From assembly GCA_000004985.1 (NCBI GenBank), contig GG738872.1: a stretch of 64,000 nt of DNA; one strand, written 5' to 3'. Under the pieces are notes generated by a model. The model made no database searches and was not told the origin of the DNA. It was given only the letters and a program-made list of their open reading frames with translations. The position numbers and the translations under genes were made by a program. The stretch's first letter is position 1; each line of letters opens with the position of its first letter. Shown here one piece after another: positions 36,644 to 64,000 of this stretch. This DNA is from Naegleria gruberi. Its lineage: Eukaryota.

Positions 36644-39619
36644 TTAAATTTCCATTAGCATTGACTTTTCTGATGGAATTCTACTGATAACAGTTTCAGA
36701 GTCATCAATACTATTTCCACTATTACTTGGACTGCTGTATGAAGTGGTGTTCTTTTGATATTTTTCACTCATTTTCAATTGTTGATAATAATCTGGGAAT
36801 ATCCAATATTTAATACCATAGAAAATAAAATCAAATGCCAATGGAGTAACAACACACAACAAGTGAACAATCCAAAACTTTGGTGATTGAACGACAACAT
36901 ACCAAACATAGTATGTAAAATTAGCACTTGTTGAAATGAATTCAATACCAGCATAGGCAAATTGAAAACCATAATAAGTTATAAATGATAAAATCATACA
37001 TAAGTGATGAATAATTGTAATATTTTCCATTTCAAAATAACATTTCAAATTAACAACAATAAAAACACTTGAACAAATTAAGGTAGATAATGACCAAAGT
37101 CCATCATCTCTACCATCTGTTAAAAGTGAACTTGAATTATTTCCATAAATAGCAAAATAGAATATTATAGTAGCATGAATAATTCCACCTAAAATCCACT
37201 TGATAAAAGTAAACCAATTAAAAATGTAATCAGTTCTCAATTGAGCATATAACTTTGGACCAATCTCTGGATCTTCCAATAAATCTTCATTAACATCCTT
37301 TTCGAATAAACCAAATACGAAAGGATTCAATAAAGTGAAAACTAAATTATAAAAAGTTAAAACATATGAATCAGCAATAGTTTGACCAGAACTCATTGTA
37401 TAAAAAGCATAAAATATCTGAACAAATGATATTACAATATTCTTATAAAATGAATATTGAATAAATTGAGCTGATCTCTTATAGGAATACCTGCCATGTG
37501 TCACTAGTAATCTTTTTAACATGTAAAATTTAGGAATTGCATAATCAGATGCTAATTTAGCTTGTGAACCTTCTTTACCCATAATACCAACACCTATTTT
37601 AGCTTTTTGAATCATTGGAACATCATTAGCACCATCTCCAATTGCTAAACCATTTTTACCTAATTTCTTTTTTGCCAAATCAACAAGTTGTGATTTTTGT
37701 TTTGGTGTGGCACGACAACAAATGACAGTTTGACATTTCTTGACAAGTTCAATAAATAAATTTGATGTCTTTTCATTTTCCATACAGAAAGTGAATGAAT
37801 GTCCATCTAATATTAAGGCAATATCAATTTTAGAACTGTCAATTGTCAAATTTACAATTTCTTGAATGTAATGTGATATATATTTAGAACATGACACTTC
37901 GTCATGAATTGTTCCATCTTCACCATTCAATGAATAAATTTTTGATTCCTTTGATAGGAAATTTGACATTTGTGCAATATTAATAGCAGTTTCTCTTTTA
38001 TCACCTGTTAATAACCATAATTGTAAACCTGCATCAAGTAAAAATTTAATAGTTTCTGGAACATTTGGTTGTAAACAATCTTCAATTCCAGTTGCACCAA
38101 CAATATTTAAATTACTTTCCAATTCAAATTCACATTCTTCAATGGCTTGTTTTCTCCTCCTTGAAGACATGATTGATTTAGATGAATTATATTTAGTCAA
38201 CCAAGTATTAAATTCAATTGGTTCAATAAATTTAAATGCTAATAATAAAGTTCTTAATCCATCAATGGCAAAATTTAAAATATGTTGTTCTAATTGTTTT
38301 CTATCCTTTTCATTTTCAGTAGATTTAATGAATGGAAATAGAAAACTATCTGCTCCTTTTGTAAAACAAACATAAATTCCATTATTAGTTTCCATATTTG
38401 GAATTGCAAAGTTTGCCATTTTTCTATAAATGGGATAATCATTTAAAAATTCATTAGGAAATAAAAATATAGTTGACATTCTCTTTCTATCTGCTGTAAA
38501 TGGAATTTCGGCAAGTCTTTCAAAATGATACTCCTTTCCAAATATTTCCAAAATTGTCTTTTTTTCAGAATAACACTTGACTAGGAATCCATTATTTTGT
38601 GCACCCAAAACTAGTGCAACTTCATCAATACTTTCACCTTCAAAAATAGTTTTCAATTGTTCTGTTTGATTTTCCTTTTTAGATTTCTTTCTATTTTTAA
38701 CAATTTTCTCTCTAACTGAAACATTATGACATAGTGAAAGTAATAACAAAGTATTAAATGCTTGAAAGAATTCCATCTCATTGGTAAATGATAATTTTCT
38801 TTCTGAAATGATTGAATCCAATTCATTTTGAGTTAATTCATGAGCAGTATGTTTTTTCTTAGTATGGTAATCTCTCAATTTATCTAAAATTGATCCTAAT
38901 TGACCTTTACAAGTAAAATCATCATGAATATAATCATATGAAATACAACACTTTTTAAATACCATTGAATTTTCAGTCAATGTTCCAGTCTTGTCACTAA
39001 AAATGATATCAACTTGTGATAAGTCAGCATTTAAATCACTCGAAATGGAAAGTGAATTTAAAAATATTTTCTTATCTGAATCATGAGGATCTTGTTCATA
39101 AATTGCCATCTTATTATCCATTGTAATAAACCAAGCTTGAATCATTTTTACAAATTCCAATGAAACAAATAAAGAAACAGGAATCATTAAACTTAATAAA
39201 ATGAAATAAGTTAAAAATGATGAAATTACAAAACCAGTATCTGAAATTCCAATTGGAGTTGGTTGACCAGTATATGTTGCCTTTGTTTTAGCTTGTGTGA
39301 ATTCATAGTATCCCCCCAATCCAGCAAATAATAAACAACATGCAATTTGAATTGTAAATAAAATACCAACTGCATAATTTAACATGGCATTTACAAAACT
39401 AAATTTAACTTTTCCTTTTTGCATATTTTTCATAATTTTAGTATCAGATCCTGTATAGATTACAGTTCCATAGACAAATTGTGTACTTTTTAATATAGAT
39501 CCTTTTAAGAGTAAATTTTGATGTGAAAGTGGTATTTCATTATGAATATTTCCATTATTAGTAATTGTATTTCCATTATTAGTAGTAGTAGTAATATTAT
39601 TATCACCTTGAGGTTCATT
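36644..39619 (-). CDS. P4-type ATPase (phospholipid flippase), 5'-truncated by the assembly gap. The ORF runs from the gap side down to the stop at 36644.
   Basis: It has the DKTGTLT phosphorylation site, the P-type hinge GDGANDVPMIQKAKIGVGI, and C-terminal TM helices. The conserved LLLKGSILKSTQFVYGTVIYTGSDTKIMKN follows a poly-T/N insert. Two in-frame TAA codons lie between the coding part and the N-run at 39641, so the actuator domain and TM1-2 must lie in or beyond the gap. Confidence 0.8.
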   Translation of the reverse strand, partial: NEPQGDNNITTTTNNGNTITNNGNIHNEIPLSHQNLLLKGSILKSTQFVYGTVIYTGSDTKIMKNMQKGKVKFSFVNAMLNYAVGILFTIQIACCLLFAGLGGYYEFTQAKTKATYTGQPTPIGISDTGFVISSFLTYFILLSLMIPVSLFVSLEFVKMIQAWFITMDNKMAIYEQDPHDSDKKIFLNSLSISSDLNADLSQVDIIFSDKTGTLTENSMVFKKCCISYDYIHDDFTCKGQLGSILDKLRDYHTKKKHTAHELTQNELDSIISERKLSFTNEMEFFQAFNTLLLLSLCHNVSVREKIVKNRKKSKKENQTEQLKTIFEGESIDEVALVLGAQNNGFLVKCYSEKKTILEIFGKEYHFERLAEIPFTADRKRMSTIFLFPNEFLNDYPIYRKMANFAIPNMETNNGIYVCFTKGADSFLFPFIKSTENEKDRKQLEQHILNFAIDGLRTLLLAFKFIEPIEFNTWLTKYNSSKSIMSSRRRKQAIEECEFELESNLNIVGATGIEDCLQPNVPETIKFLLDAGLQLWLLTGDKRETAINIAQMSNFLSKESKIYSLNGEDGTIHDEVSCSKYISHYIQEIVNLTIDSSKIDIALILDGHSFTFCMENEKTSNLFIELVKKCQTVICCRATPKQKSQLVDLAKKKLGKNGLAIGDGANDVPMIQKAKIGVGIMGKEGSQAKLASDYAIPKFYMLKRLLVTHGRYSYKRSAQFIQYSFYKNIVISFVQIFYAFYTMSSGQTIADSYVLTFYNLVFTLLNPFVFGLFEKDVNEDLLEDPEIGPKLYAQLRTDYIFNWFTFIKWILGGIIHATIIFYFAIYGNNSSSLLTDGRDDGLWSLSTLICSSVFIVVNLKCYFEMENITIIHHLCMILSFITYYGFQFAYAGIEFISTSANFTYYVWYVVVQSPKFWIVHLLCVVTPLAFDFIFYGIKYWIFPDYYQQLKMSEKYQKNTTSYSSPSNSGNSIDDSETVISRIPSEKSMLMEI

Positions 39620-40994: not shown

Positions 40995-41143
40995 AATGCC
41001 AGGTTTTGAGATAAAAATTTTAAGGATTAGGAAATTGTGTGCGTTTGTATAGAATCACAAGGCATCAACAAGCAATTGCTAAAAGAAACTCATTTTCGTT
41101 AAATACAATGAACCAACATATCTCAAAACCTGGCATATTTTGA
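40995..41143. mobile_element. Candidate MITE-like element (~150 bp) bounded by 17-bp terminal inverted repeats (tgccaggttttgagat / atctcaaaacctggca).
   Basis: The inverted 16-17-mer pair lies at ~40996-41011 and ~41128-41143. The internal segment is AT-rich and non-coding. Its right two-thirds recur at 46088-46179. Confidence 0.3.
41049..41140 (+). repeat. Dispersed repeat, copy A (~92 bp).
   Basis: It matches 46088..46179 at ~93% identity in the same orientation (atagaatcacaaggcatcaacaagcaattgcta...aatacaatgaaccaac..atctcaaaacctggcatattt). Confidence 0.85.
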
Positions 41144-41769: not shown

Positions 41770-41819
41770 NNNNNNNNNNNNNNNNNNNNNNNNNNNNNNN
41801 NNNNNNNNNNNNNNNNNNN
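41770..41819. other. Assembly gap (50 N).
   Basis: A run of n characters. Confidence 0.99.
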
Positions 41820-41842: not shown

Positions 41843-43687
41843 CTAACCTAATAATTTACATACTTCATATAATAATTCAGCTTTCTTAATAGGCTTAATT
41901 AGAACCTTGTTGATACCTGTGTCAAGTAGAGAATTAATCTCCTCTTTCGCACTGTTTCCAGTTAAAGCTATTATTGTATTATTGGTGTTGTTATCTTTTT
42001 TTCTCTTCTAAGTATTCGTGTTGTTTCTAAACCATTCATGACTGGCATGATGACATCAAGGATGATAAAATCGAATTGAAAGGTCTCACACATTTTTAAA
42101 GCCTCCAATCCATTTTCAGCTTCCTCACAACTACATGATTTAAGAATGTTCTTTACAATATTTCGTATGATTTCATTATCATCAACTACCAAAGCTCGTT
42201 TTCCCACGAGTATTCCCTCTTGATATTTCAAATCTTCTTTTCGGATTTCTTGTTTGTAGGAAGGATGGGTGTATGGTATGGTTATGGTGAAGGTTGACCC
42301 CAATCTCTCAACTGACTCCACCTTAATAGAGTACTTGCATGAGTTTGTGAGAATGTTGAGAAGTACTTGCTGAATTTTGGTAGGATCTGAATACATCATT
42401 TCTGGAACGCTTTCGTCAACACATATTGTTACTTTCAGTTCTTCATGTTCGTATATCTTTACCATTTGGATAAGTTGATAAAGTTTATCTCTGAGGTTGA
42501 AGGTTGATACATTTAGTTTCATAAAGCCAGATTCTAGTTGGGAAATGTCAATTAAGTCATCCAACAGTTGAAGAATGTACTCTGTTGAAAAGTTGGATTG
42601 GATTTCTTAATTCATGGGACATATACGCTATAAATTTAGTTTTTTGTATTAGGTCCTCTTTTGTGGATTCATCGTTTACAGTTATTGCAAGATAAGGATC
42701 ATTTCTAAAAAAGAAACTACTAACAGATATGGAGATGGGAACCAACTCTTTGTTACAATCAAATTAACAAGATGCTTCTAAATATGGTTTACAATGAGTA
42801 TTTAGTCTACTTATTGATAAATCTACACCTGATCTTGTTCTTCTACTATTACAATTGGCGATTGTTTTCACTTTAAACCAAACACCGAGGCAGTGCTTCC
42901 TATCCACTTCAGACCATACAGTATTAGGTATCAAATCACAAATGTGAATTGGATTGGTAGTTATGTTGCCAATGTATGGTGGAAAGGAGACTCCAAACAG
43001 TTCTTTTGCACTCATATTCATTGCTACCACGTGTAATTCCCTGTTAACAACAATAATTCCCTCCTCTAATTCCCTAAATAATGCTAATGACAGTTCGGCT
43101 ATTCACTTTCCCCCAATAGTGGGTTGATTAAGTTATCAAATTGGTTATCACTATTAACAAAATGTGATTCATTTAAGGACTCACTATGCTGAAGCTCGTG
43201 CTCATATAACATGATCAAGTGGGCTAAAGAGTTTCCCAAATATGAGAGGATTGGAACCATCTCCTCATAGTATCCACCCTCCTTGTTAGCAAGTACCAAA
43301 ACACCCACTGTATCATAGCCAAACACGAGAGGTAAGCATAACGCGTTCTCCTTATCAGGATGGACAAGAGGCTTATCGTTTGTCCTAGGAGGCAAACTAT
43401 TGCAAATGATTGTTCTCTTTTCAAGGAATGCTTGAACAAAAAGTGCATGTGAGCCAACGGTTTTGAAAATTAATTTATCTGGAGCTTGAAGTTATCTCAG
43501 AAAAGCTCTTTAATTTTAACATCAAGGAATAGGTACTTGATGTTATCTCAGCTACCTGTTCCGAAAGGTGGCTCATTAAGCACCATTCGCTTACCCTGTT
43601 ATCAGAGTTTTGTAACAGTGTTTTAAAGCCTTGTTTGATGATTTCCATGAACTTGCTCTTCCAACTCTGTAGTGTGAATAAGCTCAT
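41843..43687 (-). pseudogene. Hybrid histidine kinase (GAF - HisKA - truncated HATPase_c - receiver), apparently disrupted: candidate pseudogene.
   Basis: Four consecutive minus-strand ORFs sit in different frames: 43099..43395 (GAF-like), 42764..43030, 42557..42745 (H-box AYMSHELRNP) and 41971..42564 (LIDISQLESG..., N-box LLNILTNSCKYS, receiver DDN...D...MPVMNG). The ATP-binding G1/F/G2 boxes are missing. The receiver domain is frameshifted by an 8-bp tandem duplication (tattattg tattattg at ~41969-41984). It resumes as PIIALTGNSAKEEINSLLDTGINKVLIKPIKKAELLYEVCKLLG, ending at the stop at ~41843-41845. Confidence 0.55.
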
Positions 43688-44226: not shown

Positions 44227-45636
44227 TTAATTTACTTTCCTCACAATAAGAGGCCAACCAACTTGAATGACAACGAACTTGTGGATAGTTTTATCATTAT
44301 TGCCAAGTAATTCTTGTTCTTTTTTGGCATATTGTTTAACCTTAGAACTTGCCTCATTTAAGATACTTTCAACTTTAACATATTTGTTTGCCCATTTTTG
44401 AAAAACTAGCATATTCAATAACTGGCTTTCATCAGCTTGTAATAATTCTTTAAATTTTTCCTTAAACATATAAGGTTTCCAAATTCTAATAGTAGAATAT
44501 TGTGATAAATACATTGGTCTCAAACGTTTCAATTTAATGATAAATATGTCATTGTCGGTTGAAATAACAAGGTCAGCTCTTAATTCAGTATATTCTTTTC
44601 CATTGATATGATAATTTGTATATTCCTTTTCTGCTCTAAAAGTAAAATCTTTGCTTCTATATAAAGAATATGATCTCAATGCAGATTCAATACAAGATTG
44701 TAAACCTCTTTCAGACATATCATTGTCAAACACTGTTTCTTGCTTGCTTAAAATACTCCAAAGTAATTTTTTCAAATTATCTTGAGTTGGTTCATTAATA
44801 AAAGTTGATATATCACTTTCACGTAAAGATATAAGTCTACGTAACTGTTCCAAATATTGAACCTTTGTAATTTCATTTGGAATTAACAATTGTTTTGGAT
44901 TCATTTGTTTTGAGGATGATTCTGTGAAAGTAATCATACCATGATAATACATGAATGATAAAGCATTATCACGAATCTTTGATATATCCTCTTCATTGGA
45001 TGGTGGGTCAATGATCTCTCTTAATTTTAGTGAAGGATAAATAGACTCTGTTACTTCAATATAATCTTTAGACAGTAATTGTTGAATGATATCATTTGAT
45101 ACAACTGATGATGCCAAAGTTGCAAAAACATTCTCACTGATCATTATGTTGGTATCTGTTAATATTGATAATGGAATGTCTTGTTTTTGTAAAACAGCAT
45201 TTCTGAAAGGTTCATCTTTTACAAGTTTGTTCAAAAAGAACATTGAAAGAGTTGTGTTAAATAGAGCATGTTTTGAACCAGGAAAATGATAACCATTATA
45301 ATACTTTTTCATGGTTGAAATGGCAGTATCTTGATCATTTCCAAGAATATCAATATTATTCAATGCCATTCTCAGATCATTTTCTGTAAAACCAACCAAA
45401 CCACCAAATATCTTATCAAAGGAAATATTACTGGAAACATTATATCCAGATGCATCTGCAAGAGCAATAGGAGTGATACCAATGATTAAACTACGAAAAT
45501 CTTGTAAACCAACACCTGAAGACCATTTTAATTGTTCAAAGAAAGAACGAATTGGTGNNNNNNNNNNNNNNNNNNNNNNNNNNNNNNNNNNNNNNNNNNN
45601 NNNNNNNAAAAGGATTACAGTTGGAATAAATGGCAC
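44227..45636 (-). CDS. AAA-ATPase_like (PF09820-type) C-terminal region followed by a PD-(D/E)XK nuclease-like (DUF1703/PDDEXK_9-type) domain. The 5' end is interrupted by the gap.
   Basis: Family signatures are GITPIALADASGYNVSSNISFDKIFGGLVGFTENDL...KKYYNGYHFPGSKHALFNTTLSMFFLNKL, and further downstream ELRADLVISTDNDIFIIKLKRLR (D...E.K). The N-run 45558-45607 falls inside the ORF. A weakly related upstream ORF 45807..46055 (EIIEK...FMYPISNFI) sits in another frame. Confidence 0.5.
   Translation of the reverse strand: MPFIPTVILXXXXXXXXXXXXXXXXXXPIRSFFEQLKWSSGVGLQDFRSLIIGITPIALADASGYNVSSNISFDKIFGGLVGFTENDLRMALNNIDILGNDQDTAISTMKKYYNGYHFPGSKHALFNTTLSMFFLNKLVKDEPFRNAVLQKQDIPLSILTDTNIMISENVFATLASSVVSNDIIQQLLSKDYIEVTESIYPSLKLREIIDPPSNEEDISKIRDNALSFMYYHGMITFTESSSKQMNPKQLLIPNEITKVQYLEQLRRLISLRESDISTFINEPTQDNLKKLLWSILSKQETVFDNDMSERGLQSCIESALRSYSLYRSKDFTFRAEKEYTNYHINGKEYTELRADLVISTDNDIFIIKLKRLRPMYLSQYSTIRIWKPYMFKEKFKELLQADESQLLNMLVFQKWANKYVKVESILNEASSKVKQYAKKEQELLGNNDKTIHKFVVIQVGWPLIVRKVN
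45558..45607. other. Assembly gap (50 N).
   Basis: A run of n characters. Confidence 0.99.
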
Positions 45637-46087
45637 AGCTTAAATATTTGAATTGTTATTATAAATAACCAATGTAATGAAGGCAATATAGGTTGCTGAG
45701 AGAAACTCCCAGAAAAAATCTCAACACAAATTCAAATTCTGCAACATGGTTGTTCACACAATTTCTTAATTTGGCAATATAGATACCGATTATATTATCA
45801 CCATATTTATATATTTTCTATTTTAATAAATTTCCTATATTTAAGCTTTCCTAAAGTCTGGTAAATAAATATTACAAAAAAATGCAAACTCAATTCTGTC
45901 AACATAGGTATTACAAAAATCCTCATAAATCTGAGTGATTGGAAATTTGTTAAGCCACAAATAATGAAATTTGAAATAGGATACATAAATTGAGAACTCA
46001 TCATTTTTTCAATAATTTCCTGAGCAGATGCTGAATTGAGATGCATGGTCATCAACTTTCCAACTTGCTCATAAGGAAAATCTGTTC

Positions 46088-46179
46088 ATACAATCACAAG
46101 ACATCAACAAGCAATTGCTAATAGAAATCCATTTTCGTTAAATACAATGAACCAACGAATCTCAAAACCTGGCATATTT
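46088..46179 (+). repeat. Dispersed repeat, copy B (~92 bp).
   Basis: A direct copy of 41049..41140 lying 5.0 kb downstream. It carries only one arm of the 17-mer TIR. Confidence 0.85.
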
Positions 46180-46859
46180 GCTTCATCTTTGTTTACTCAT
46201 TTGAATGAAAGCCAAATGATTCTCTCTTTCATAAATATTAGCCGTTGATATTATAATGCAAAATTGAAAAGACAATTTAGGCTGAGTGTTACTCTTAAAT
46301 ATTAAACATTTCAATTTCTTATATTATGGAGTATTTGATTTTTTGAACTGTTTGCACTGAATATTGAAACAAGCATCAATTAAGATCTTTTAGCAAGGAG
46401 AATGATAAAAGACTTTTATATTATTTATAACTATCTTAACATCCTCATTCCCTTATCAAATGTTTATTCAACATTACAATTCATTTATCTACAGTAAAGA
46501 TGATCTCATTTAGTAAGAGGTCATCATTATCAAAGCAGAAGGAGTAACAACGATGATAGAATCTTTTGTAAACTTTATCCATGTTGAATAAAATAGTCAG
46601 TTTATCTAAAAGAGTACTCATTGCACACTTCAACGTTCACAATCTTCCAATCAATAACAAACATCATCTGGCAGATTTTATTGTAAACACACTCCCACAG
46701 GCCTATTATTACACAACTTCTTTTCAAATGTGATGAAAGTGAGTTACAGTTACTATTCAACAAATGAACACTTTGAATAAAAGATTTTCTTGTTGACAAA
46801 TAAAGGATTTTTCAAAGCCTCTCTTCTTGTGAGTACTCCGAATTAAAAGACTAAAAAAA

Positions 46860-49791
46860 ATGTCGACAAGTAAATTCTCAGCATCATCATCCAATGGTGG
46901 TGCGCTTGTAATGATGATGGCAAGTCTAATGTTATTGCTATTGACATCATTTATTGAAAGTGCTCCAATGTATCAACTTGATAATTTATCTAGAACAAGT
47001 AATGGTTATTCTGGTATTTTAACCTTGACACAAGGACAGTAAGTAAATCATCATCAAGTTCCGAAATTAACACACTAATGATGATGATAACAATGATATA
47101 TTGATGATGTATTGATAATAGAGGTCCTTATGGTGGTGACTATACAAAGTTAGCTTTGGATGTTTACTATGAAACACAAAATAGAGTTCACATTAAAATT
47201 ACTGATTTGGCAAAACAAAGATGGCAAGTTCCAAGTTGGATTATTAAATCAAAGACTCCTGCTAATGAACCTGCTGATAAAGATTATTTGGTCAATTTGA
47301 AAACATCTCCATTTGGACTTGAAATTTATAGAAAATCAACAATGGAATGTATTTTCAATACTACAAATATTCCACTCATTGTAAGTTTATCTCCTATCAA
47401 TAACTGTCAATATATAATGTTATTATTATTACTATTATTATAACTGTATTACAATTTCTAATAATCATGAATTTGGTTATAATATTTGATAACAATTCTA
47501 TGAATTAATCAATAGTTTGAAGATCAATTCATTTCATTTGGTACAAGTTTTGATAAAACTCAAAAATCCAAAGATCAAGGACAAGTTAATATTTATGGAT
47601 TTGGTGAAAGAGCTAGACCATTGAGATATACACCTGGTACTTATACAATGTGGAATTTAGATAATTTGAATACTCCAAATGAAAATTTATATGGTACTCA
47701 TCCATTCTATATGCAATATTATTCTAATAGTGGTCGTGCTCATGGTGCATTCTTATTTAATTCCAATGCAATGGATGTTACAATTACAGATGATAATTTA
47801 ATTTGGAAGACAATTGGTGGTGTTATTGATTTGTACGTTTTCACTGGTCCAACTCCAGAAGATGTTACTAAACAATATCACGAATTAATTGGCACTCCAT
47901 ATATGCCACCTTTCTGGACATTGGGATGGCATCAATGTAGATATGGTTACAAGAGTATTGATGAAGTTAAAACTGTTTATACTAAATATACTCAATATGG
48001 TATTCCATTAGATACTATGTGGAATGATATTGATTATATGGATGGTTATAGAGATTTTACAACTGATCCAATTAGATATCCAAAAGCTGAAGTTCGTCAA
48101 TTTGTTGAAAACTTAAAGGCAAAGAATCAACATTACGTTGTCATTATTGATCCAGGTATTAAATTTGAACAAGGTTACAAACCATATGATATTGGTAAAC
48201 AATTGAACGTTTTCATTAAGAAGAGTGATGGTGTTACTGATATTGTTAACACTGTTTGGCCAGGTTATTGTGTTTTCCCTGATTTTACTAATCCAAAGGC
48301 TATTCCATATTGGGAAAATTTGGTTGCTCAATTCTATTCTGAAATTCCAGTTTCTGGTTTATGGTTAGATATGTAAGTAGTAGATTTTGTTTCTATTTAT
48401 TTAACAATACTTTGGATTACCAATAATAATTGAATCAAATATAATGATATTAATAATAACAAAATAGGAATGAAGTCAGTTGTTTCTGTAATGGTACTTG
48501 TACTCCAACAAAGAAATACCAAAAAGTCAATAACAAATTTGATCCAAATAATCCACCATATGTTCCAGGAGGTAGACAACTCGATATGAAGACACTTTCA
48601 ATGGATGCTGTTCAACATATTTCCATTAATTATAACACTCACAGTTTGTATGGTCTCTATGAAGTTAATGCAACTGTTTCTGTTCTTCAAAAAGTTACTG
48701 GTAATAAGAGACCATTCATTTTAACTAGAAGTAGTTATCCTGGTTTGGGTGCTATTTCTGCTAAATGGTTAGGTGATAATGAAGCCACTTGGGAATCAAT
48801 GAGAAACAGTATTAGTGGTATGTTAGCTATGCAAATGTATGGTGTTGCATTGATTGGAGCTGATATTTGTGGTTTCATTGGTAATACTACTTATGAATTG
48901 TGTGCCAGATGGACTCAAATGGGTTCTTATTATCCATTCACTAGAAATCACAATGATATTAAGGCCAACGATCAAGAACCATACGTTTTTGGTCAAGAAT
49001 TTGTTGATATGACTAAGAGAGTTCTTGCTAATCGTTATTCATTGTTGAATTTCTATTATACTCAATTCTATGATGTTCATGTTAATGGAGGTGGTGTTGT
49101 TCAACCATTGTTCTATGTTTTCGGTCATGCTGATTCAAATCCATTATTGGCAACTATTGATACTCAATTTATGGTTGGTAAATCATTAATGATTATTCCA
49201 GTATTAGAAGCAGGTGTTAAGAGTGTTAAGGGATACATTCCAAAGCATAAGCCAGGTTGGTTTGATTATTTCAGTGGTGAATTGATTTCTGCTACTGGAG
49301 GTGAAACAATGGAATTTGATGCTCCATTGCTTGGTTATACTCCAACTTTGATTGCTGCTGCCAAGATTGTTCAAAAGCAAATTCCATCATTAACTACTTT
49401 TGATACCAGAAGAAATCCATTCCAACTTACAATTGCTTTATGTCAACATGAATTCCATGCTAATGGTCAAATTTATTTAGATGACGGTGAAACTGCTGAA
49501 ACTATTGAAAGAGGAGTTTATTCATTGGTTGATATTCAAGCTAAACGTATTTCACAAAATGTTCTTACTCTCGTTACTAAGGTTGTTAAGGATGAATATC
49601 AAACTAATATTCCAAAATTGGATCAAGTTACATTCTACGGTTATCCATTAACTAGTGAAGTTTGTACTGTTACTGTTAATGGTAATGCATACCATAGAAT
49701 AACAATTGAAGCAAAGAAGAGAATTGTTACAATGCGTGGTCTTGGATTACATTTACTTGAATCTAATTTAATTGTCATTACATGTCAATAA
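46860..49791 (+). CDS. Secreted/lysosomal alpha-glucosidase, glycoside hydrolase family 31. Four exons, 46860..47038, 47122..47380, 47516..48372 and 48468..49791.
   Basis: It has an N-terminal signal peptide (ALVMMMASLMLLLLTSFIESA). GH31 motifs include YGFGERA, the WNDIDYMD region and GLWLDM|NE spanning intron 3. Introns are gtaagt...ataatag (47039..47121, 83 nt; phase 2), gtaagt...caatag (47381..47515, 135 nt; phase 0) and gtaagt...aaatag (48373..48467, 95 nt; phase 2). Exon junctions reproduce conserved GH31 sequence. Confidence 0.85.
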
Positions 49792-50292: not shown

Positions 50293-51516
50293 ATGGTTAA
50301 TAATGATATTACCGTAACTGTAGAAGATGACTACAAGCAAAAGAGCGGAAAGGCTAGATATGAACAAAAAGAAGTTAAGGAATTTGATGATATGAATCTT
50401 AAGGAAGATTTACTCAGAGGAATTTACTCTTATGGTTTTGAAAAGCCATCAATTATCCAACAACGTGCCATCTTGCCAATCACTACTTCTGAACCACCAG
50501 CAGACGTTATTGGTCAAGCCCAATCTGGTACTGGTAAGACTGCTACTTTTACTATTTCATTGCTTCAAAGATTAAATATTTCTCCTGATGTTATCCAACC
50601 ACAAGGACTTGTTTTGGCTCCAACAAGAGAATTGGCTCAACAAATCCACAAGGTCATCATGTCATTGGGTGAATATATGAAGGTTAAAGTACACGCTTGT
50701 GTTGGTGGTACTAAAGTTCAACACGATATTGCCATTCTTGAAGAAGGTGTCCACATTATTGTTGGTACTCCTGGACGTGTTTTCCACATGATTCAAAGTG
50801 GTCACTTGAACGTTAACAGCATTAAGATGTTAGTTATCGATGAAGCCGACGAAATGTTGAGCAGAGGTTTCAAGGATCAAATTTATGCCATCTTTAAGAA
50901 TCTCCCACAAGATATGCAAGTCTGTTTGTTCAGTGCTACTATGCCAACTGAAGTTTTGGAAATTACTGACAAGTTTATGAGAGATCCTATTAGAATTTTG
51001 GTAAAGAAGGAAGAATTGACATTGGAAGGTATTAAACAATTCTACATTTCAGTTGATAGAGAAGACTACAAGTTTGAAACTTTGTGTGATTTGTACAAGG
51101 TTTTGACTATTTCCCAATGTGTCATTTTCTGTAACTCACGTAAAAAGGTCGAACAATTGGCTGAACAACTTAACAAGAAGGACTTTACTGTCTCCTGTAT
51201 GCACGGTGAAATGGATCCAAAGGATCGTGAATTGATTATGCACGAATTCAGAACTAGTGCTTCTCGTGTTTTGATTACTACTGACTTGTTGGCTCGTGGT
51301 ATTGACGTTCACCACGTTTCCTTGGTTATTAACTTTGACTTGCCACGTCACAAGGAAAATTACCTCCACAGAATTGGTAGATCTGGTAGATATGGTCGTA
51401 AGGGTGTTGCCATCAACTTTGTCACCAAAGATGATGTTAGATCCTTGAGAGAAATCGAAAAGTTCTACTCTACTTCTATTGAAGAATGTCCTAACAACAT
51501 TGCCGAATTGATTTAA
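50293..51516 (+). CDS. EIF4A: Eukaryotic translation initiation factor 4A (DEAD-box RNA helicase).
   Basis: Motifs present are [13 protein letters not shown] (motif I), [17 protein letters not shown] (DEAD), SAT, and [19 protein letters not shown] (motif VI). It is a single 407-aa exon with an A-rich Kozak-like context upstream. Confidence 0.9.
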
Positions 51517-57341: not shown

Positions 57342-57445
57342 ATGTCTTCACTACCAACAACATCATCACTTGATAATAACAATACTATTCAACAAGAAGA
57401 CAAACATAGACCTACTATATCAATCTCTTCATCTACTAATACTTC

Positions 57446-57480
<35 letters not shown>

Positions 57481-58884
57481 CATATTAATAATTCTAATAA
57501 TAATAATAGTAAAAATAATCATTTATTAAAATCATTCTTTTTAAAAATCTTTCATAAATCCAATAATTCAAATAATTCCAATAATAATGAATTAAAAAGA
57601 AATCAATCATTTTTTGATCGTTTTAAAAGAAAAAAAAAAGATTTAAATGAAAATGATTTATCACCATCAGCTGCAAGTAGTTTATCTTTAAATGATTTAC
57701 CTGATGTTATTAATATAGATGATGATGATGATGATATTCATATTCATGATGATAATGTATCTATTAATAATAATAATAATACTAGTAATAATTTAAATAA
57801 TAATAATTTTAATATTAATAATTTTAATAAATATATTTATTTATTTAATGCAAATTCTAATAAATTAAATATTTATAATAAATATAATGATGAAAATGAT
57901 GAAAATGATAATGAATTAAAATGTATAAATGAAATAATGGATCATACAGATGATATAAATTGTATTTTAAATTTTGATAATTTATTATTTACAGGTTCAC
58001 ATGATAATTCAATTAATTTTTATAAAATTAATGAAAATAATTTAAATTTAATTACAAAATTTCAAGATGAAACAAATACTTTAGAAAGTTTATCAAATTA
58101 TAAAAAAACAAATTTAATTTCTGGTTCAAGAGATAAAATTATTAGAATTAGAAATTTAGATTCTGAAAATGGAAATTTAATAAAATTAGAAGGTCATACT
58201 AGTTGGATTCATTGCGTTTATGGTGGAAGTGATAATTTAAATAATTCTAATAATTCTAATTCTAATAATATATTATATGAATCACATTTATTTTCATCAC
58301 AAAGAAGTACAACATTAAATGAAAGTGATATCTATATTTGGAATATTGAATATGGAAATATAGTACAAAAATTACGTGGACATGAATCAACAGTTTATAA
58401 AATGACACAAATTAATTCACTTCTTGTTTCTGCATCACAAGATAGTAGTGTTAAATTATGGGATTTAAAATCAAATCAATTAGTTGGTGATTTGAGAGGT
58501 CATAATGATTGGGTTAAAGATGTTATTAATCCATCAATTCTTAATTCATCATCTTCATTATCATCTACATCATCATTTGAAATTGTTTCATGTTCAATGG
58601 ATGGTAGTATTAAATTATGGGATATTAGAAAAATGTCAACTTCAACTAGTCATTCAAATGATTTAAATAATTCTATTAATAATAATTCCAATAATAATAA
58701 TGGATCATCATCATTAATAGAAACTATTTATCAAAATGAACAAATTGGATTTAATTGTATATATCCACATGATAGTAAATATTGGTATTTTGGATCTAAT
58801 CAAAGTGGTAAATTACATTTATATAATTTCAAAGATAAGAAATTTAAAGAATTACATCTTGTTAGCACCACCTTGACTATGTGA
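57342..58884 (+). CDS. WD40-repeat protein with a long N/D-rich N-terminal region. The start codon is uncertain.
   Basis: WD repeats sit in the C-terminal half (SGSRDKIIRIRNL, SASQDSSVKLWDL, SCSMDGSIKLWDI). An A-rich-context ATG at 57342 (MSSLPTTSS...) is in frame 0 and terminates at ~57487 inside an (AAT)n tract. The long ORF 57175..58884 is in frame 1. Confidence 0.5.
57447..57476. repeat. (AAT)n microsatellite, ~10 units.
   Basis: Direct reading: aataataataataataataataataat. Confidence 0.9.
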
Positions 58885-60900
58885 TAATAAATAATTTGGA
58901 GTTTTCATAAAGGATGAAGATTTTGTACTTGAATTTTCTAAACTTCTATCTTGATAATAGGATGAAGATGGAGATGAATAATTTGACATGGCAGATGATG
59001 CATTTCTTCTAATTTCTTCAGCACGTAATATATTTGTTCTTGTATTATTAACTCTTCCTTTTAACTTTTTCTTTGTATGTTTATCTCTTAAATCTCTAAT
59101 TTTATCAGAGGTAGATGATTGATTTTCCAATGTAGCAGGCCATTGAAGTGGTTTAACAGATTCATAACTTCCTCTAAATGATTTACTCTTAATAGTTTCA
59201 AAACCATAGGCATTCATAAATTCATTTAAAGAAATATATCCTCTTCTTTTACCATGTAATGATTCAATCATTTGATCTAAATCAACATCAAGTATATATC
59301 TATCAAATTTCTTTAAAGTTTCTCTAAAAACACTTAATGGAACTCTATCTGTATCACCATATATTGGAAATGCACTTCTTAAATTTTCCAACTTGTTATT
59401 ATATGAAGTATTAACTTGATTAATTGAATGAACTAAATCATCATGTACACCATAGGGTGCTCTTTCTTTTTTAGGATCCATTATTCTTTCAATTTGTTGT
59501 TCATTTCTTTCTCTTCTTCTACGAATGGCTTCATGATTCATTGTACCACAATATCTTGATTCTCTTTGTGAAGTTGTTGTATTTGTTCCTAGTTGTTTTT
59601 CTAATTGTTCCATTGCTCTATTAAATTCACTATATCCAAAATAACCATCATTATTTGGATCTGCCATTCTAATAAATTCATCAATCTTTTTAACTTGTTC
59701 ATTTTGATATTGTTGAACTGCTAAGAAATTTGGTAAATCTGATGGTACTTCATCTAATAAATGAAAATCCTTAATAATTGCCTTTTTAAAATCATCACTT
59801 TTAACTTTACCACCTGTATATCCTGTTGCTTGTTTAATTCTCCTAAATGCTTCAGATAATGATGGTGAAAGTCCATGAATTTTATCTTTAACTACTTCTA
59901 ATACATCATTGGATTTAGAATAATCTAAATCTCTCAAATGTGTTGGTACATGCTTTTCATTCTCTTGTTTTGAATGACTATTATATCCATGTTTAGCATA
60001 ATATTGATTAATTAATTCTCTATTCGTTGGACTATTTCCATTTATAGAAGAATTAACTGATGAATATTGTTGTGAGGAACGATTGGAAAATAAACCATTA
60101 CCACCACCACTATGATTACTACTTAGACTTGAATTTACTTTAGGTGGAACAAATGTATTTTGATTAGAACTTGTAAAATTTGAATTATAAGTTGTAGTGT
60201 TGTGATGATTTTTAGGTGAATTATAATAGGAATGAAGTGATGATACTACACTATTTGCAGGTGATATTACTTGTTGTTGATTTGAACTTCTTCTACTTCC
60301 ACTTGCACTTGCTGCTCTCTTAATTGGTCTATCAAATGATGTTTGAGAGAAATCTCTCATCTTAGATGGACTTAGATCTAAATCTAATCGATTGTTTTTA
60401 ATCATTCCCATATCAGTTGAAGATCTAAAATTCATCATTTCATTTCTATCAAATCTATTATTATTATTGGTATTATTATTAGTATTATTATTATTGGATG
60501 TATTATTATATGAATTTGAATTATGATTACCTAGTGAAGAATTACTTCTATTGACAGGAGATGATGCTCTATTCATATGAATAGGAGAACTTGATCTTTG
60601 TATTGGTGATGATGCTCTATTTAAAACAGGACTGGTTGATCTTTGTAAGATTGGAGATGATGCTCTTAATTCATCAATTGATGGTGGAGGTAAAGGTGCA
60701 TCAATTTTAGAACGATTCATTCTAGATGAACCGCCTGATTGAGGTCTCTTCTTTTTAGAATCTTGAAACATTATTGGTGAAGCTGAACGATTTGGTTGCA
60801 TATTCAATCCACTATTATTTAATATTGGTTCATCAATAAGGCTATTATTATTGGATACTTTTAATTCCTTTCTAATAAAACTACTAGCACTTCTACTCAT
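58852..60900 (-). CDS. EF-hand domain protein with an S/N/P-rich N-terminal region (repeated SSP..R.SSP phospho-site-like motifs).
   Basis: It has canonical EF-hand loops (DPNNDGYFGYSEF, GKRRGYISLNEF). The 682-aa ORF is intact. Its 3' end overlaps the convergent WD40 gene by ~33 nt. Confidence 0.6.
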   Translation of the reverse strand: MSRSASSFIRKELKVSNNNSLIDEPILNNSGLNMQPNRSASPIMFQDSKKKRPQSGGSSRMNRSKIDAPLPPPSIDELRASSPILQRSTSPVLNRASSPIQRSSSPIHMNRASSPVNRSNSSLGNHNSNSYNNTSNNNNTNNNTNNNNRFDRNEMMNFRSSTDMGMIKNNRLDLDLSPSKMRDFSQTSFDRPIKRAASASGSRRSSNQQQVISPANSVVSSLHSYYNSPKNHHNTTTYNSNFTSSNQNTFVPPKVNSSLSSNHSGGGNGLFSNRSSQQYSSVNSSINGNSPTNRELINQYYAKHGYNSHSKQENEKHVPTHLRDLDYSKSNDVLEVVKDKIHGLSPSLSEAFRRIKQATGYTGGKVKSDDFKKAIIKDFHLLDEVPSDLPNFLAVQQYQNEQVKKIDEFIRMADPNNDGYFGYSEFNRAMEQLEKQLGTNTTTSQRESRYCGTMNHEAIRRRRERNEQQIERIMDPKKERAPYGVHDDLVHSINQVNTSYNNKLENLRSAFPIYGDTDRVPLSVFRETLKKFDRYILDVDLDQMIESLHGKRRGYISLNEFMNAYGFETIKSKSFRGSYESVKPLQWPATLENQSSTSDKIRDLRDKHTKKKLKGRVNNTRTNILRAEEIRRNASSAMSNYSSPSSSYYQDRSLENSSTKSSSFMKTPNYLLSHSQGGANKM

Positions 60901-61713
60901 TTTGTACAGTTATTATTATTCTAATTATTTATATATATGAAGGGTTGTTGTTTTTGTTGTTGATGATGTTTTTGTTTGAATATTACCACTAATTATTGAG
61001 GGAACAATTTTAAAAGGGGAAGATATTCTTGTTTATATAATTTTGCTACTACCACTACTACTACTCTTAGAAAAGATGAAGAAGATGACAATCCGTATTA
61101 AAACAATTCATAAAGTCTTTTGAGAGATTGGTGCTTATATCCCTTACTTTTAATTTTTTAATGATTGATTGAGAGGAAAGCCTTCTTTTCAACCGTTATA
61201 ATTTTCCACCTTGTAAATAATTCAAGTCTCGTGTCAATTAAGAGAGAGCAATTCAATTGCTTTTTTTTATAATAAAAAAATATTTACGATTCTTTGAAAC
61301 AAGCAACGCTTCATTAAGAGAGAGAACAAGCAAACGAACAGGCGAAGCCTTATCAAAGTGACTCTATTTGAAGTGCTGGCCAAATCAAGTTTAGAGGGAG
61401 ACAATTCCATATATCAATTCAAATATGTTTCTTAGAGAGAGAGAAAGTATAAACCTTGCATTCATTGACACAATACGAAGAATGTGGACAAGTCTAGATG
61501 TTGATTTATATAACATCTCTTTTGAATGATTCATAATATTCTGTAATTTTCAAAGCCATCTCTTACTGCTTTATCATTTTAGAGTTTGAGACTCTGAATC
61601 ATAATTAGTTAAATAATAATTTTAGTTTATTAGCCTTATTATTATAAGCTTGAACATGTAGAGTTTAGGTTGAGTTTAATGATTTTTTTTTCAAACACAA
61701 AAAAATTGGTAAA

Positions 61714-63144: not shown

Positions 63145-64000
63145 TTGATTTGGCAGAATTTGTTGAAAATCATGAAATACAAGAATGGCAATTAAATACA
63201 GTTTCAAATGATAAATGTTCATATATGGATGGATATCAAGATCAAATTATTTATATTTGTTTAACTTGTTTAGAAAATATTAATTCAAATATTTATAATA
63301 ATAATTTAAATAATTTAAATAATAATAATAATAATATAATTATAAATAATATAAATGAAAATAAAATATATACAAATATAAATGGAAATGAATTAATATT
63401 ACATGGTATATGTGAATATTGTTCTAAACATTGTCATCATGGACATTCTATATATAATATTGGATTAAAAAGGAAATTTAAATGTGATTGTGGTAATTTT
63501 AAATTTAAAAATAATGATATAAATGGTAATAGTAATATATTAATAGATTGTGTAGGATGTAATATAATTAAATCTAATTTAAATGAAAGAAATGAATATA
63601 ATCATAATTATTGTAATGAATGGTGTTATTGTAATCAATCTGAAACAGGTAATATGTATCAATGTGATCATTGTTATGATTGGTTTCATGATCATTGTAT
63701 TTTTAATAATTTAAATACTACTATAAATGGAAATGATAATAATATAGGTGATTTGGCAAATAGATTGGGATTTTCATTTATATGTGAAAAATGTTGGAAT
63801 GATAATATTAAAGATATAAATTATACAATTGAAATTGATCAACAAGATTATTTTAATAATAATAATCAATTTAATATTATAATACAAAATATTTATAAAA
63901 ATAATGATGATAACATGATATTGACATCTTCATCATCTCTTAATAATAATATTGATAAACAAATAGTTCAATTAGATGAAGATGATGAAGATGATGATGA
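63132..64000 (+). CDS. UBR7: UBR7-like putative E3 ligase (UBR-box zinc finger + PHD finger), 3' partial at window end.
   Basis: It is absent from the ORF track because it runs off the window. Frame 0 is open from 63132 to 64000. KCSYMDGYQDQIIYICLTC...GICEYCSKHCHHGHSIY...RKFKCDCGNFKFKN matches the UBR7 UBR box (CSYSQGS...ALYACSTC...GICLACSYECHGSH...RNFRCDCGNSKFKN). It is followed by a PHD C4HC3 (CNEWCYCNQSETGNMYQCDHCYDWFHDHC). The first in-frame ATG is at ~63222. Confidence 0.7.

What the first reader, a model, noticed from the sequence alone, without database searches (positions are those of the whole stretch)
44227..46055. Prokaryote-type AAA-ATPase_like + PD-(D/E)XK (DUF1703-like) gene in a eukaryotic genome
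Residues GITPIALADASGYNV...FGGLVGFTENDL...KKYYNGYHFPG...ALFNTTLSMFFLNKL, then a C-terminal D...E.K nuclease-like block (ELRADLVISTDNDIFIIKLKRLR), reproduce the architecture of a family abundant in Bacteroidetes, Firmicutes and archaea. That family is only sporadic in eukaryotes. The 5' end is broken by an N-gap, and a degenerate possible N-terminal fragment (45807-46055) sits in another frame. It lies inside the repeat-bounded segment.
Basis: partly seen in the sequence, partly recalled or inferred. Interest (0 to 1): 0.5.

Follow-up and report, generated by a model that had tools for sequence, protein, structure and literature searches.

The report
Gap-truncated mosaic ATPase-nuclease gene copy
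This is the back two-thirds of an unannotated second copy of a bacterial-type ATPase-nuclease gene in the amoeboflagellate Naegleria gruberi, cut off by an assembly gap. It belongs to a family already found in Naegleria and its relatives, but half of it has been overwritten by its sister copy and its nuclease site has lost a key acidic residue.

Summary
The open reading frame is real: minus strand 44227-45557, 442 codons plus a stop, ending mid-codon at a 50-N gap. The window is Naegleria gruberi NEG-M (Heterolobosea), not an amoebozoan. The fragment is an unannotated paralogue of NAEGRDRAFT_78045 and aligns to its residues 268-705 at 76% identity.

The fragment gets no Pfam hit. The paralogue hits PF09820 strongly, and PF08011 stays below threshold. 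Profile comparison and predicted structure support a PD-(D/E)XK fold.

- The Walker A/B core is absent from the window.
- The proposed N-terminal remnant at 45807-46055 is not related to the family.
- The "E.K" motif is actually K-L-K. The Glu that is at least 90% conserved is Lys here.

The gene is a mosaic. The 5' 786 nt diverge 5.9% from the sister gene, which indicates gene conversion. The nuclease module diverges 34% and is an older lineage.

The bounding "repeat" is a small MITE-like element. The family forms a eukaryote-type group with leaders that resemble mitochondrial presequences.

Verdict: a new member of a known family, of modest interest.

The parts
44227..45557 (-). Coding fragment of an unannotated DUF1703-type gene. 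It has 442 codons plus a stop (44227-44229) and 2 bases of a split codon at the contig edge. It corresponds to residues 268-705 of NAEGRDRAFT_78045.
   Evidence: ORF list and translation. tblastn gives 76% identity over 442 residues. phmmer E = 6.5e-207. No 100%-identical protein exists in the collection, so it appears unannotated.
45421..45557 (-). Residues 1-45: the last strands of the AAA+ alpha/beta core, i.e. the sensor-1 region FRSLIIGITPIALADASGYNV. This is the only part that overlaps Pfam PF09820.
   Evidence: PF09820 covers residues 79-301 of the paralogue, and the fragment starts at 268. The sensor-1 assignment follows Knizewski 2007. The strand is seen in the full-length model at residues 287-293.
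45181..45420 (-). Residues 46-125: AAA+ lid, or domain 2 (FTENDL..., YYNGYHF, LFNTTLSMFFLNKL). Boundaries are approximate.
44746..45180 (-). Residues 126-270: helical and winged-helix-like linker. Boundaries are approximate.
44230..44745 (-). [quoted passage not shown]
44572..44574 (-). Motif II Asp (D328), retained.
   Evidence: Alignments A1 and A2. The column is at least 90% Asp across 40 eukaryotic and bacterial members.
44527..44535 (-). Motif III reads K341-L342-K343 instead of E-x-K. The catalytic acidic residue is replaced by Lys (AAA). One G-to-A change from GAA would produce this.
   Evidence: Sequence. All 13 other aligned members with sequence in this region have E or D here. The Glu is at least 90% conserved in the 40-sequence alignment.
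44263..44265 (-). Motif IV Gln (Q431 in VVIQVG), retained.
   Evidence: Alignment. Motif definition from Knizewski 2007.
44773..45557 (-). Tract homogenised with the NAEGRDRAFT_78045-type gene (gene conversion). Divergence is 5.9% in nt, 92% identity in aa, dS 0.18.
   Evidence: Sliding identity. Maximum chi-square breakpoint at 44772, reached by 0 of 1000 permutations. Third codon positions differ 10% on one side and 48% on the other. dN/dS. The tree of this part puts the window with 78045 at 100% bootstrap.
44230..44772 (-). Old, divergent nuclease module. Divergence from 78045 is 34% in nt, 56% identity in aa, dS 0.89, dN/dS 0.39.
   Evidence: In the tree of this part, 78045 groups with both Willaertia genes at 100% bootstrap and excludes the window copy.
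45558..45607 (.). Gap of exactly 50 N that cuts the gene. It is probably a placeholder of unknown true length.
   Evidence: N-run list. A second gap of exactly 50 N lies at 41770-41819, so the gene sits on a 3.7-kb contig (41820-45557) between two such gaps.
40996..41136 (.). MITE-like element of 141 bp with perfect 17-bp terminal inverted repeats (ATGCCAGGTTTTGAGAT).
   Evidence: There are 3 inverted-repeat matches in the window against 0.03 expected.
46088..46175 (.). Second, one-ended copy of the same element. This is the right copy of the 'bounding repeat'.
   Evidence: A third partial copy lies 25 nt after the stop codon of the full-length sister-type gene on L001.

Best explanation
Window 44227-45557 (minus strand) is the 3' two-thirds of a second, unannotated Naegleria gruberi gene of the DUF1703 family. 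It is a paralogue of NAEGRDRAFT_78045.

Full-length family members have four parts:
- a leader;
- an AAA+ ATPase of the archaeal-ATPase / STAND / Orc-Cdc6 structural class, with Walker A RPPRWGKS and Walker B DEYD;
- a lid plus a helical and winged-helix linker;
- a C-terminal PD-(D/E)XK nuclease.

The expected mode of action for the family is a nucleotide-dependent switch or oligomerisation that controls DNA binding and cleavage by the nuclease domain. This is inferred from the fold, not shown.

In the assembly the contig stops in mid-codon at a 50-N placeholder, so the ATPase core is simply not assembled. It most likely continues into the gap.

The copy is a mosaic:
- Its lid and linker part has recently been overwritten by gene conversion from the 78045-type gene.
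- Its nuclease module belongs to an older lineage that has stayed an open reading frame under purifying selection.

The nuclease module keeps the fold, the motif II Asp, the motif III Lys and the motif IV Gln. It carries Lys in place of the near-invariant motif III Glu. I therefore predict a paralogue that still folds and may still bind DNA but is a poor or dead nuclease. It may act together with the near-identical ATPase and linker module of its sister. That last step is speculation.
For: **Host and locus**
- Two window ORFs are identical to N. gruberi proteins on a 413-kb scaffold.

**Homology and extent**
- E = 6.5e-207 to NAEGRDRAFT_78045, aligned to its residues 268-705.
- Identity runs to the last base before the gap, and the split codon xCA fits the Ser found there in the sister.

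**Family**
- PF09820 hits the sister at 2.4e-41.
- Bacterial PF09820+PF08011 proteins are hit by the fragment and by the family profile at 1e-82 to 1e-99.

**Fold**

**Mosaic**
- The breakpoint is at 44772, with 5.9% against 34% divergence and 0 of 1000 permutations reaching that value.
- dS is 0.18 against 0.89.
- The two trees conflict, each at 100% bootstrap.

**Constraint**
- There are no stop codons in 442 codons of AT-rich DNA.
- dN/dS is 0.17 and 0.39.
- Lineage-specific changes are equal against N. fowleri and N. lovaniensis outgroups: 15 vs 18 and 17 vs 16.

**Active site**
- K341 replaces a Glu that is at least 90% conserved.

**Sequence hidden in the gap**
- The metagenome protein P0001 carries a foreign block at residues 177-292. 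At all four informative sites (274-292) it matches the window copy rather than 78045. This suggests a window-type gene with a Walker B region exists.
Against: - The ATPase half is not in the window at all.
- The sequence beyond the gap (45608-46860) shows no trace of it. A complete gene therefore needs a true gap of roughly 0.8 kb or more, plus upstream sequence.
- No other data set contains this copy. The best JGI metagenome relative is 42% identical, and the best protein hit is 77%.
- No expression data are available.
- dN/dS of 0.39 in the nuclease module is compatible with some relaxation.
- E-to-K is a single-base change and could be a sequencing error.
- No member of this family has been characterised biochemically or structurally. 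A PDB sequence search found nothing. The mechanism therefore rests on fold analogy.
Confidence: 0.6

Rival explanations
1. Dead relic: a genuinely 5'-truncated, untranscribed pseudogene fragment. The ATPase half was lost from the genome rather than hidden in the gap, and E341K is part of its decay.
For: - There is no N-terminal coding sequence anywhere in the window.
- The catalytic Glu is lost.
- It is absent from the N. gruberi protein set.
- dN/dS is higher in the 3' part, at 0.39.
- N. gruberi also has an annotated C-terminal-only relative, P0010 of 376 aa. Its locus could not be inspected.
Against: - Homology runs to the very last base of the contig. A real truncation would have to coincide exactly with an assembly break.
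- 442 codons have no stop in about 27.5% G+C DNA despite dS of 0.89 in the 3' part.
- Amino-acid change is symmetric against outgroups.
- The one other 'truncated' family member that could be checked is an annotation artefact. This is Willaertia P0004 of 442 aa, whose ATPase domain lies just upstream of the annotated start.
Confidence: 0.25
2. Assembly artefact: the 3.7-kb contig is a chimera of reads from NAEGRDRAFT_78045 (5' part) and a divergent paralogue (3' part), or it is misplaced in this scaffold. On this reading the mosaic is not biological.
For: - The contig lies between two 50-N placeholders.
- The contig ends where identity to the 78045-type sequence is highest, at 99-100%.
- A metagenome contig of the sister gene also looks mosaic.
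Against: - The 5' part is not identical to NEG-M's own 78045. It differs at 19 of 250 residues.
- Divergence rises gradually from 0-2% to about 10% before the breakpoint. That pattern is expected of conversion tracts, not of a read-level join.
- A second module swap at the same domain boundary is seen among independent genomes. Nlov_0909 groups with N. fowleri in part A and with Ngru_P0010 in part B at 100% bootstrap.
Confidence: 0.05
3. Recent bacterial transfer or contamination: a prokaryotic gene newly arrived in, or wrongly assembled into, a eukaryotic scaffold. This is the strong reading of the first reader's title.
For: - The closest non-eukaryotic relatives are bacterial proteins of about 589 aa. 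They come from Competibacteraceae, Thiothrix, Ca. Kentrum and Cloacimonetes.
- The family was first described from bacteria and one archaeon.
Against: - Base composition matches the host.
- The flanking genes are Naegleria genes.
- It is 76% identical to another N. gruberi gene and 44-57% identical to genes of N. fowleri, N. lovaniensis and Willaertia, against 24-29% for bacteria.
- The Heterolobosea clade has 100% bootstrap.
- Eukaryote-type members share the RPPR Walker A variant and N-terminal leaders that bacteria lack.
Confidence: 0.02
4. Fully active variant nuclease: the Lys at motif III is tolerated or compensated by another acidic residue, as in PD-(D/E)XK families whose catalytic residues have migrated. 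On this reading the copy is simply a second working enzyme with a different nuclease module.
For: - The ORF is intact and under purifying selection.
- D328, K343 and Q431 are retained.
- Migration of catalytic residues is documented in this superfamily (Knizewski 2007).
- Other family members also deviate yet persist. P0005 has Asp replaced by Arg. P0008 and P0009 have Asp replaced by Ser and Lys replaced by Thr.
Against: - The Glu is at least 90% conserved across 40 eukaryotic and bacterial members.
- It is a metal ligand in canonical PD-(D/E)XK enzymes. That is established knowledge of the superfamily, cited.
- A positively charged residue at that position is the opposite of what metal binding needs.
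- No compensating residue was identified.
Confidence: 0.12

Closest known systems
NAEGRDRAFT_78045 (N. gruberi, 705 aa, 'AAA-ATPase-like domain-containing protein'), with its orthologues and paralogues in N. fowleri, N. lovaniensis and Willaertia magna
   Same: Same family and same genome. Identity is 76% over 442 residues, and 92% in the lid and linker part. The domain order is the same and the C-terminus is the same (GWPLIVRKVN vs GWPLIVRKLN).
   Different: - The window copy lacks the assembled ATPase core and leader.
- Its nuclease module is only 56% identical and branches outside the 78045 + Willaertia clade.
- Motif III is KLK instead of EFK.
- It sits on another scaffold with unrelated neighbours.
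DUF1703 family as defined by Knizewski et al. 2007 (Pfam PF09820 AAA-ATPase_like + PF08011 PDDEXK_9). It is mostly found in Bacteroidetes and other bacteria, and in Methanospirillum.
   Same: - It has the same four-part layout: AAA+ domain 1, domain 2, a helical region, and a restriction-endonuclease-like domain with an extra C-terminal strand.
- It shares the unusual Walker A (RPxRxGKS) and the DEYD Walker B, both seen in the sister gene.
- It shares motifs II, III and IV.
   Different: - Eukaryote-type members have RPPR[WF]GK[ST] instead of RPRRFGK[ST].
- They have a 25-81-residue basic leader and are longer, at 640-745 aa against about 590 aa.
- PF08011 does not reach its threshold on them.
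- The window copy also lacks the motif III Glu.
Archaeal AAA+ ATPases SSO1545 (2fna) and PAB2304 (2qen), Pfam PF01637 type, and STAND NTPases (plant NLRs, CED-4/Apaf-1, bacterial Avs)
   Different: - There is no repeat-type sensor domain (TPR, LRR or WD40).
- The nuclease is C-terminal.
- There is no hit to any PADLOC defence model.
- Sequence similarity is undetectable, so the resemblance is in fold and logic only.
Nuclease domains of the Wolbachia cytoplasmic-incompatibility factors CinB and CidB (7esz, 7esy)
   Different: - Identity is 11%.
- CI factors have tandem nuclease domains and no AAA+ module.
- Siozios 2019 also notes clear differences between DUF1703 and CI-type nuclease cores.

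Membership tests
DUF1703 (PF09820 + PF08011) | Pfam PF09820 (AAA-ATPase_like) hit above the gathering score | tested here: not met
   The fragment gets no Pfam hit at E <= 1. The reason is coverage: PF09820 spans residues 79-301 of the sister protein (E 2.4e-41) and the fragment starts at 268.
DUF1703 (PF09820 + PF08011) | Walker A RPxRxGK[ST] and Walker B DEYD | tested here: not met
   Neither is present in the assembled window. tblastn and an N-terminal family HMM find nothing in six frames. Both are present in the sister and in all full-length relatives. Whether they lie in the gap cannot be tested here.
DUF1703 (PF09820 + PF08011) | Significant full-length sequence homology to proteins that carry both Pfam domains | tested here: met
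   The fragment alone hits ten bacterial PF09820+PF08011 proteins at 4.7e-12 to 4.9e-8. The family profile hits such proteins down to 1e-95.
DUF1703 (PF09820 + PF08011) | Pfam PF08011 (PDDEXK_9) hit above the gathering score | tested here: not met
   There is no hit on the fragment. The sister scores 16.0 bits and N. fowleri 17.8 bits against a 25.5-bit cut-off. Profile-profile comparison with bacterial PDDEXK_9 C-termini gives E 4e-6 at 87% probability over the last 43 columns. In global mode it aligns motifs II and III, at E 1e-5.
PD-(D/E)XK superfamily | [quoted passage not shown] | tested here: met
PD-(D/E)XK superfamily | Catalytic signature D ... (D/E)-x-K | tested here: not met
   D328 and K343 are present, but position 341 is Lys. 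The other 13 aligned members with sequence in this region have E or D there, and the Glu is at least 90% conserved in 40 sequences.
STAND / Avs-type immune ATPases | C-terminal repeat sensor (TPR, LRR or WD40) and a match to known defence-system models | tested here: not met
   The models show no repeat domain, and the protein ends with the nuclease. PADLOC gave 0 hits for the sister and for a bacterial homologue, and one chance-level hit (E 0.032) for the fragment. The structural resemblance is limited to the NTPase, helical and winged-helix module.
Horizontally acquired bacterial gene in a eukaryote | Nested within, or sister to, a bacterial clade, with patchy eukaryotic distribution | tested here: inconclusive
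   In the NJ tree, Heterolobosea form a clade at 100% bootstrap. A bacterial group (Competibacteraceae, Kentrum, Cloacimonetes) forms a clade at 98% next to the eukaryote-type sequences. Monophyly of all eukaryote-type sequences is not supported (11%), and the direction of transfer is unresolved. The eukaryotic distribution seen covers Naegleria, Willaertia, Clydonella, one LTR-bearing contig and the fungus Terfezia.

The most novel reading that the evidence does not exclude
The eukaryote-type DUF1703 proteins are a nuclear-encoded, mitochondrion-imported ATPase-nuclease system of amoeboid protists, seen here in Heterolobosea and Clydonella. Its paralogues would diversify by swapping whole nuclease modules at one domain boundary and would repeatedly produce catalytically dead partners. 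That behaviour is more like a conflict or surveillance system than a housekeeping enzyme. The window copy would be one such dead-nuclease cassette variant.
Probability: 0.15. Interest if true: 0.6.

Novelty: new member of a known kind. Interest (0 to 1): 0.3.

Why it matters
For annotation, N. gruberi NEG-M has at least one more DUF1703-type gene than its protein set shows. The gene was missed because a placeholder gap cuts it, and any gene-family count or HGT survey based on that protein set will miss it too.

For biology, the interest is modest but real:
- It is a clean example of domain-boundary gene conversion between dispersed paralogues in Naegleria.
- It shows loss of a catalytic residue in a copy that has stayed open.
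- It draws attention to an uncharacterised eukaryote-type branch of a bacterial ATPase-nuclease family. That branch has acquired organelle-type leaders.

None of this overturns anything known. Bacterial-type genes in Naegleria are well documented, and the family itself was described in 2007.

Tried and rejected
**Family searches with no useful hit**
- Pfam on the fragment and on the 82-aa ORF at 45807-46055 found nothing at E <= 1.
- NCBIfam found nothing. PADLOC gave one chance-level hit at E 0.032.
- A PDB sequence search with a 40-sequence profile found no real relatives.
- A BFVD viral fold search returned only generic AAA or nuclease matches with TM below 0.4. afdb50 was unavailable.

**Looking for the missing N-terminus**
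- tblastn with six homologues and an N-terminal family HMM against six frames found nothing.

**Closing the gap or finding the same copy elsewhere**
- The JGI metagenome scan gave 42% identity at best.
- The exhaustive representative search gave no cluster closer than 55-60% identity.
- The loci of NAEGRDRAFT_78045 and P0010 are not on record.

**Other dead ends**
- I checked whether the bounding repeat is an RNA gene. Rfam and tRNA scans were negative. It turned out to be a MITE-like element.
- The bacterial promoter and terminator scan is uninformative for a eukaryote: 25 sites against 18.8 +/- 4.1 expected.
- The relative-rate test with Willaertia or P0006 as outgroup is rejected as invalid. 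In the nuclease part these genes are closer to 78045 than the window copy is.
- The literature has no mention of NAEGRDRAFT_78045 in the searchable text, nor in the supplements of two N. gruberi mitochondrial studies.
Full report
**What is there**

On the minus strand, 44227-45557 is one uninterrupted reading frame of 442 sense codons plus a stop. It ends, two bases into the next codon, at a run of exactly 50 N at 45558-45607. The local G+C is about 27.5%. An open frame of this length there cannot be chance, and the homology below settles the matter.

**Which genome**

Two other ORFs in the window are identical, residue for residue, to Naegleria gruberi proteins on a 413,107-bp scaffold. They are NAEGRDRAFT_80026 (eIF4A, window 50293-51513) and NAEGRDRAFT_49678 (window 58855-60900). 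The window is therefore N. gruberi NEG-M, a heterolobosean and not an amoebozoan.

The neighbours are ordinary Naegleria genes:
- fragments of a hybrid histidine kinase (GAF, HATPase_c, Response_reg) at 41971-43395 on the same strand;
- a GH31 glucosidase from 46860 on the other strand;
- a P4-type ATPase at 36647-39433.

**Family assignment**

The fragment does match NAEGRDRAFT_78045, a 705-aa protein on a different 941-kb scaffold, at E = 6.5e-207. The match covers that protein's residues 268-705 at 76% identity. It also matches genes of N. fowleri (57%), Willaertia magna (53-56%) and N. lovaniensis (36-44%). It matches bacterial proteins carrying both PF09820 and PF08011 at 4.7e-12 to 4.9e-8.

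In NAEGRDRAFT_78045, PF09820 covers residues 79-301 (E 2.4e-41). PF08011 reaches only 16 bits against a 25.5-bit cut-off. The fragment therefore overlaps just the last 34 or so residues of the Pfam ATPase domain, which explains the empty Pfam result. No protein in the 5.8-billion-cluster collection is more than 77% identical, so this copy appears to be unannotated.

**Structure**

Profile-profile comparison of the eukaryotic C-termini with bacterial PDDEXK_9 C-termini gives E = 4e-6. In global mode it aligns motif II with motif II and motif III with motif III.

This agrees with Knizewski et al. 2007. [quoted passage not shown] They noted the odd Walker A RPRRFGKS, the Walker B DEYD, and nuclease motifs I-IV. 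No family member has a solved structure detectable by sequence.

1. The ATPase core is absent. Neither tblastn with six homologues nor a profile of the family's N-terminal region against all six frames (best score 0.3 bits) finds any trace in the window. This includes 45608-46900 and the ORF at 45807-46055. That ORF is not an N-terminal remnant.
2. The '(D...E.K)' block reads RADLVI...IIKLKR. Position 341 is Lys (AAA, 44533-44535). All 13 other members with sequence in this region have Glu or Asp there. In a 40-sequence alignment of eukaryotic and bacterial members, the motif II Asp and the motif III Glu and Lys are each at least 90% conserved. D328, K343 and the motif IV Gln (Q431) are retained.

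Other family members also carry degenerate sites. Willaertia P0005 has Arg in place of the Asp. N. lovaniensis P0008 and P0009 have Ser in place of the Asp and Thr in place of the Lys. Loss of catalytic residues in otherwise intact paralogues therefore recurs in this family.

**The gene is a mosaic**

I compared it with L001, a metagenome contig encoding a protein that is near-identical to NAEGRDRAFT_78045 and fully identical from residue 314 on.
- DNA identity is 95-100% from the gap to about 44800, then 50-80% down to the stop.
- A maximum chi-square scan puts the breakpoint at 44772. Mismatches are 46 of 786 (5.9%) upstream and 180 of 530 (34%) downstream. None of 1000 permutations reaches the observed value.
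- Third codon positions differ at 10% and 48% on the two sides.
- dS is 0.18 against 0.89, and dN/dS is 0.17 against 0.39.

The trees disagree. In the 5' part the window copy is sister to 78045 at 100% bootstrap. In the 3' part, 78045 groups with both Willaertia genes at 100% and excludes the window copy.

The breakpoint lies at the junction between the linker and the nuclease domain. A second swap at the same boundary is visible: N. lovaniensis 0909 groups with N. fowleri in the first part, but with N. gruberi P0010 at 100% in the second.

The 5' part is not a mis-assembled copy of 78045, because it differs from NEG-M's own protein at 19 of 250 residues. Against N. fowleri or N. lovaniensis outgroups, the window copy and 78045 have accumulated equal numbers of private changes in the nuclease part: 15 vs 18 and 17 vs 16. 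That argues against long-term decay.

**Is the gene really truncated?**

The gene lies on a 3.7-kb contig (41820-45557) between two gaps of exactly 50 N. A third gap in the window is 340 N. I read the 50-N runs as placeholders of unknown length, which is an inference.

Homology to the sister runs to the last base of the contig, and the split codon fits the Ser found there. A true genomic truncation would have to coincide exactly with the assembly break. So the gene almost certainly continues into the gap. Whether the whole ATPase half is there cannot be decided here.

One indirect hint comes from the metagenome protein P0001. It is 78045-like except for a block at residues 177-292. At all four informative positions in that block (274-292) it matches the window copy. 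A window-type sequence that includes the Walker B region therefore probably exists, either in nature or in that sample.

The only other apparently truncated member I could inspect is Willaertia P0004, at 442 aa. It is an annotation artefact, because the ATPase domain lies just upstream of its annotated start.

Attempts to find this copy elsewhere failed.

**The 'repeat-bounded segment'**

The 92-nt direct repeat is real, but it is part of a small MITE-like element. Window 40996-41136 (141 bp) has perfect 17-bp terminal inverted repeats. A one-ended copy lies at about 46088-46175. The window holds 3 inverted-repeat matches against 0.03 expected. A third partial copy sits 25 nt after the stop codon of the sister-type gene on L001. 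Rfam and tRNA scans of the region are negative. Two copies of a dispersed element do not by themselves define a mobile segment.

**Evolutionary placement**

Profile search finds further eukaryote-type relatives at about 30% identity:
- a transcript of the amoebozoan Clydonella sp. ATCC 50884;
- a protein on a 60-kb metagenome contig that also carries a Ty3/gypsy-type retroelement.

The nearest bacterial proteins, about 589 aa long, come from Competibacteraceae, Thiothrix, Ca. Kentrum and Cloacimonetes.

All 12 eukaryote-type sequences examined have Walker A RPPR[WF]GK[ST]. Fourteen of 15 bacterial ones have RPRRFGK[ST].

In an NJ tree the heteroloboseans form a clade at 100% bootstrap and the nearest bacterial group at 98%. 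Monophyly of all eukaryote-type sequences is not supported, and the direction of transfer stays open.

The exhaustive search finds 691 cluster representatives at E <= 1e-3 and 24 at E <= 1e-30 for the fragment.

This is not a recent transfer or contamination. It is a resident, multi-copy heterolobosean gene family of bacterial type.

**How it most likely works**

The following is shown:
- the fold classes of both modules, on predicted structures;
- conservation of Walker A/B and of the nuclease motifs across the family;
- loss of the motif III Glu in this copy.

The following is inferred. Full-length members use ATP binding and hydrolysis in a STAND/Orc-Cdc6-like switch module to control oligomerisation and DNA cleavage by the PD-(D/E)XK domain. 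The window copy, with Lys where a metal-binding Glu should be, is a poor or dead nuclease that has nevertheless been kept open.

The following is speculation. Its lid and linker module is kept nearly identical to its sister's by gene conversion, so it may assemble with the sister.

Rivals are a truncated relic (0.25), an active variant (0.12), an assembly chimera (0.05) and a recent transfer or contamination (0.02).

**Verdict**

Several specifics are wrong. The object is a new, unannotated member of a known family with two mildly unusual features: a domain-boundary mosaic and loss of a catalytic Glu. Interest 0.3.

Noticed in passing
Proteins P0002, P0003, P0005, P0007-P0009, P0012, P0038, P0040 (relatives; not in the window): Eukaryote-type family members carry leaders of 25-81 residues before the conserved FPYG start. 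The leaders are rich in R/K and S/T and have 0-3 acidic residues. Most contain an R/K-x-[FY]-[SA] motif (IRRFST, IRKFST, RRFAAT) that resembles a mitochondrial presequence cleavage site. Bacterial homologues start M-x-FPYG. AF2 gives pLDDT 30-40 for residues 1-72 of the sister protein. This suggests import into mitochondria. No localisation predictor was available, and no proteome evidence was found.
   Followed up: partly
window 40996-41136 and 46088-46175; L001 5319-5398: A MITE-like element of 141 bp with perfect 17-bp terminal inverted repeats (ATGCCAGGTTTTGAGAT). The window holds one complete and one one-ended copy. A third partial copy lies right after the stop codon of the sister-type gene on a metagenome contig.
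   Followed up: partly
L001 (ENA ERZ929261 contig, 7549 bp), gene 3179-5293: The encoded protein P0001 is a mosaic of NAEGRDRAFT_78045-type sequence with a foreign block at residues 177-292. The 3' end of that block matches the window copy at all four informative sites. This is either natural gene conversion in another strain or a chimeric metagenome assembly of two paralogues.
   Followed up: partly
L009 (Willaertia magna JBEGDK010000031.1), 5470-7402: The annotated 442-aa protein ABK040_007533 is truncated by annotation. tblastn of the N. gruberi protein (residues 62-493) matches from 5470, which is 530 nt upstream of the annotated start at 6001. The ATPase domain is therefore present.
   Followed up: yes
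Alignment A1, trees: A second module swap occurs in the family. N. lovaniensis C9374_000909 groups with the N. fowleri gene in the lid and linker part (76%). In the nuclease part it groups with N. gruberi P0010 (100%). Those two share a long insertion after motif III.
   Followed up: partly
window 41971-43395 (minus strand), gap 41770-41819: Fragments of a hybrid histidine kinase (GAF_2, HATPase_c, Response_reg) lie directly downstream of the fragment, broken into several ORFs and cut by the other 50-N gap. Steczkiewicz 2012 notes that some archaeal DUF1703 genes lie near PAS/CheY genes. This is probably coincidence.
   Followed up: no
window 50293-51513: A separate 6,783-bp N. gruberi scaffold carries a partial eIF4A (EFC35809.1, 191 aa) in the same 90%-identity cluster as the window's eIF4A gene. 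This hints at unplaced duplicate or alternative-haplotype scaffolds for this region.
   Followed up: no
window 62001-64000: G+C drops to 15%, with strong positive GC skew (0.29), at the right end of the window. Low-complexity repeats around 57400-63400 match one another.
   Followed up: no
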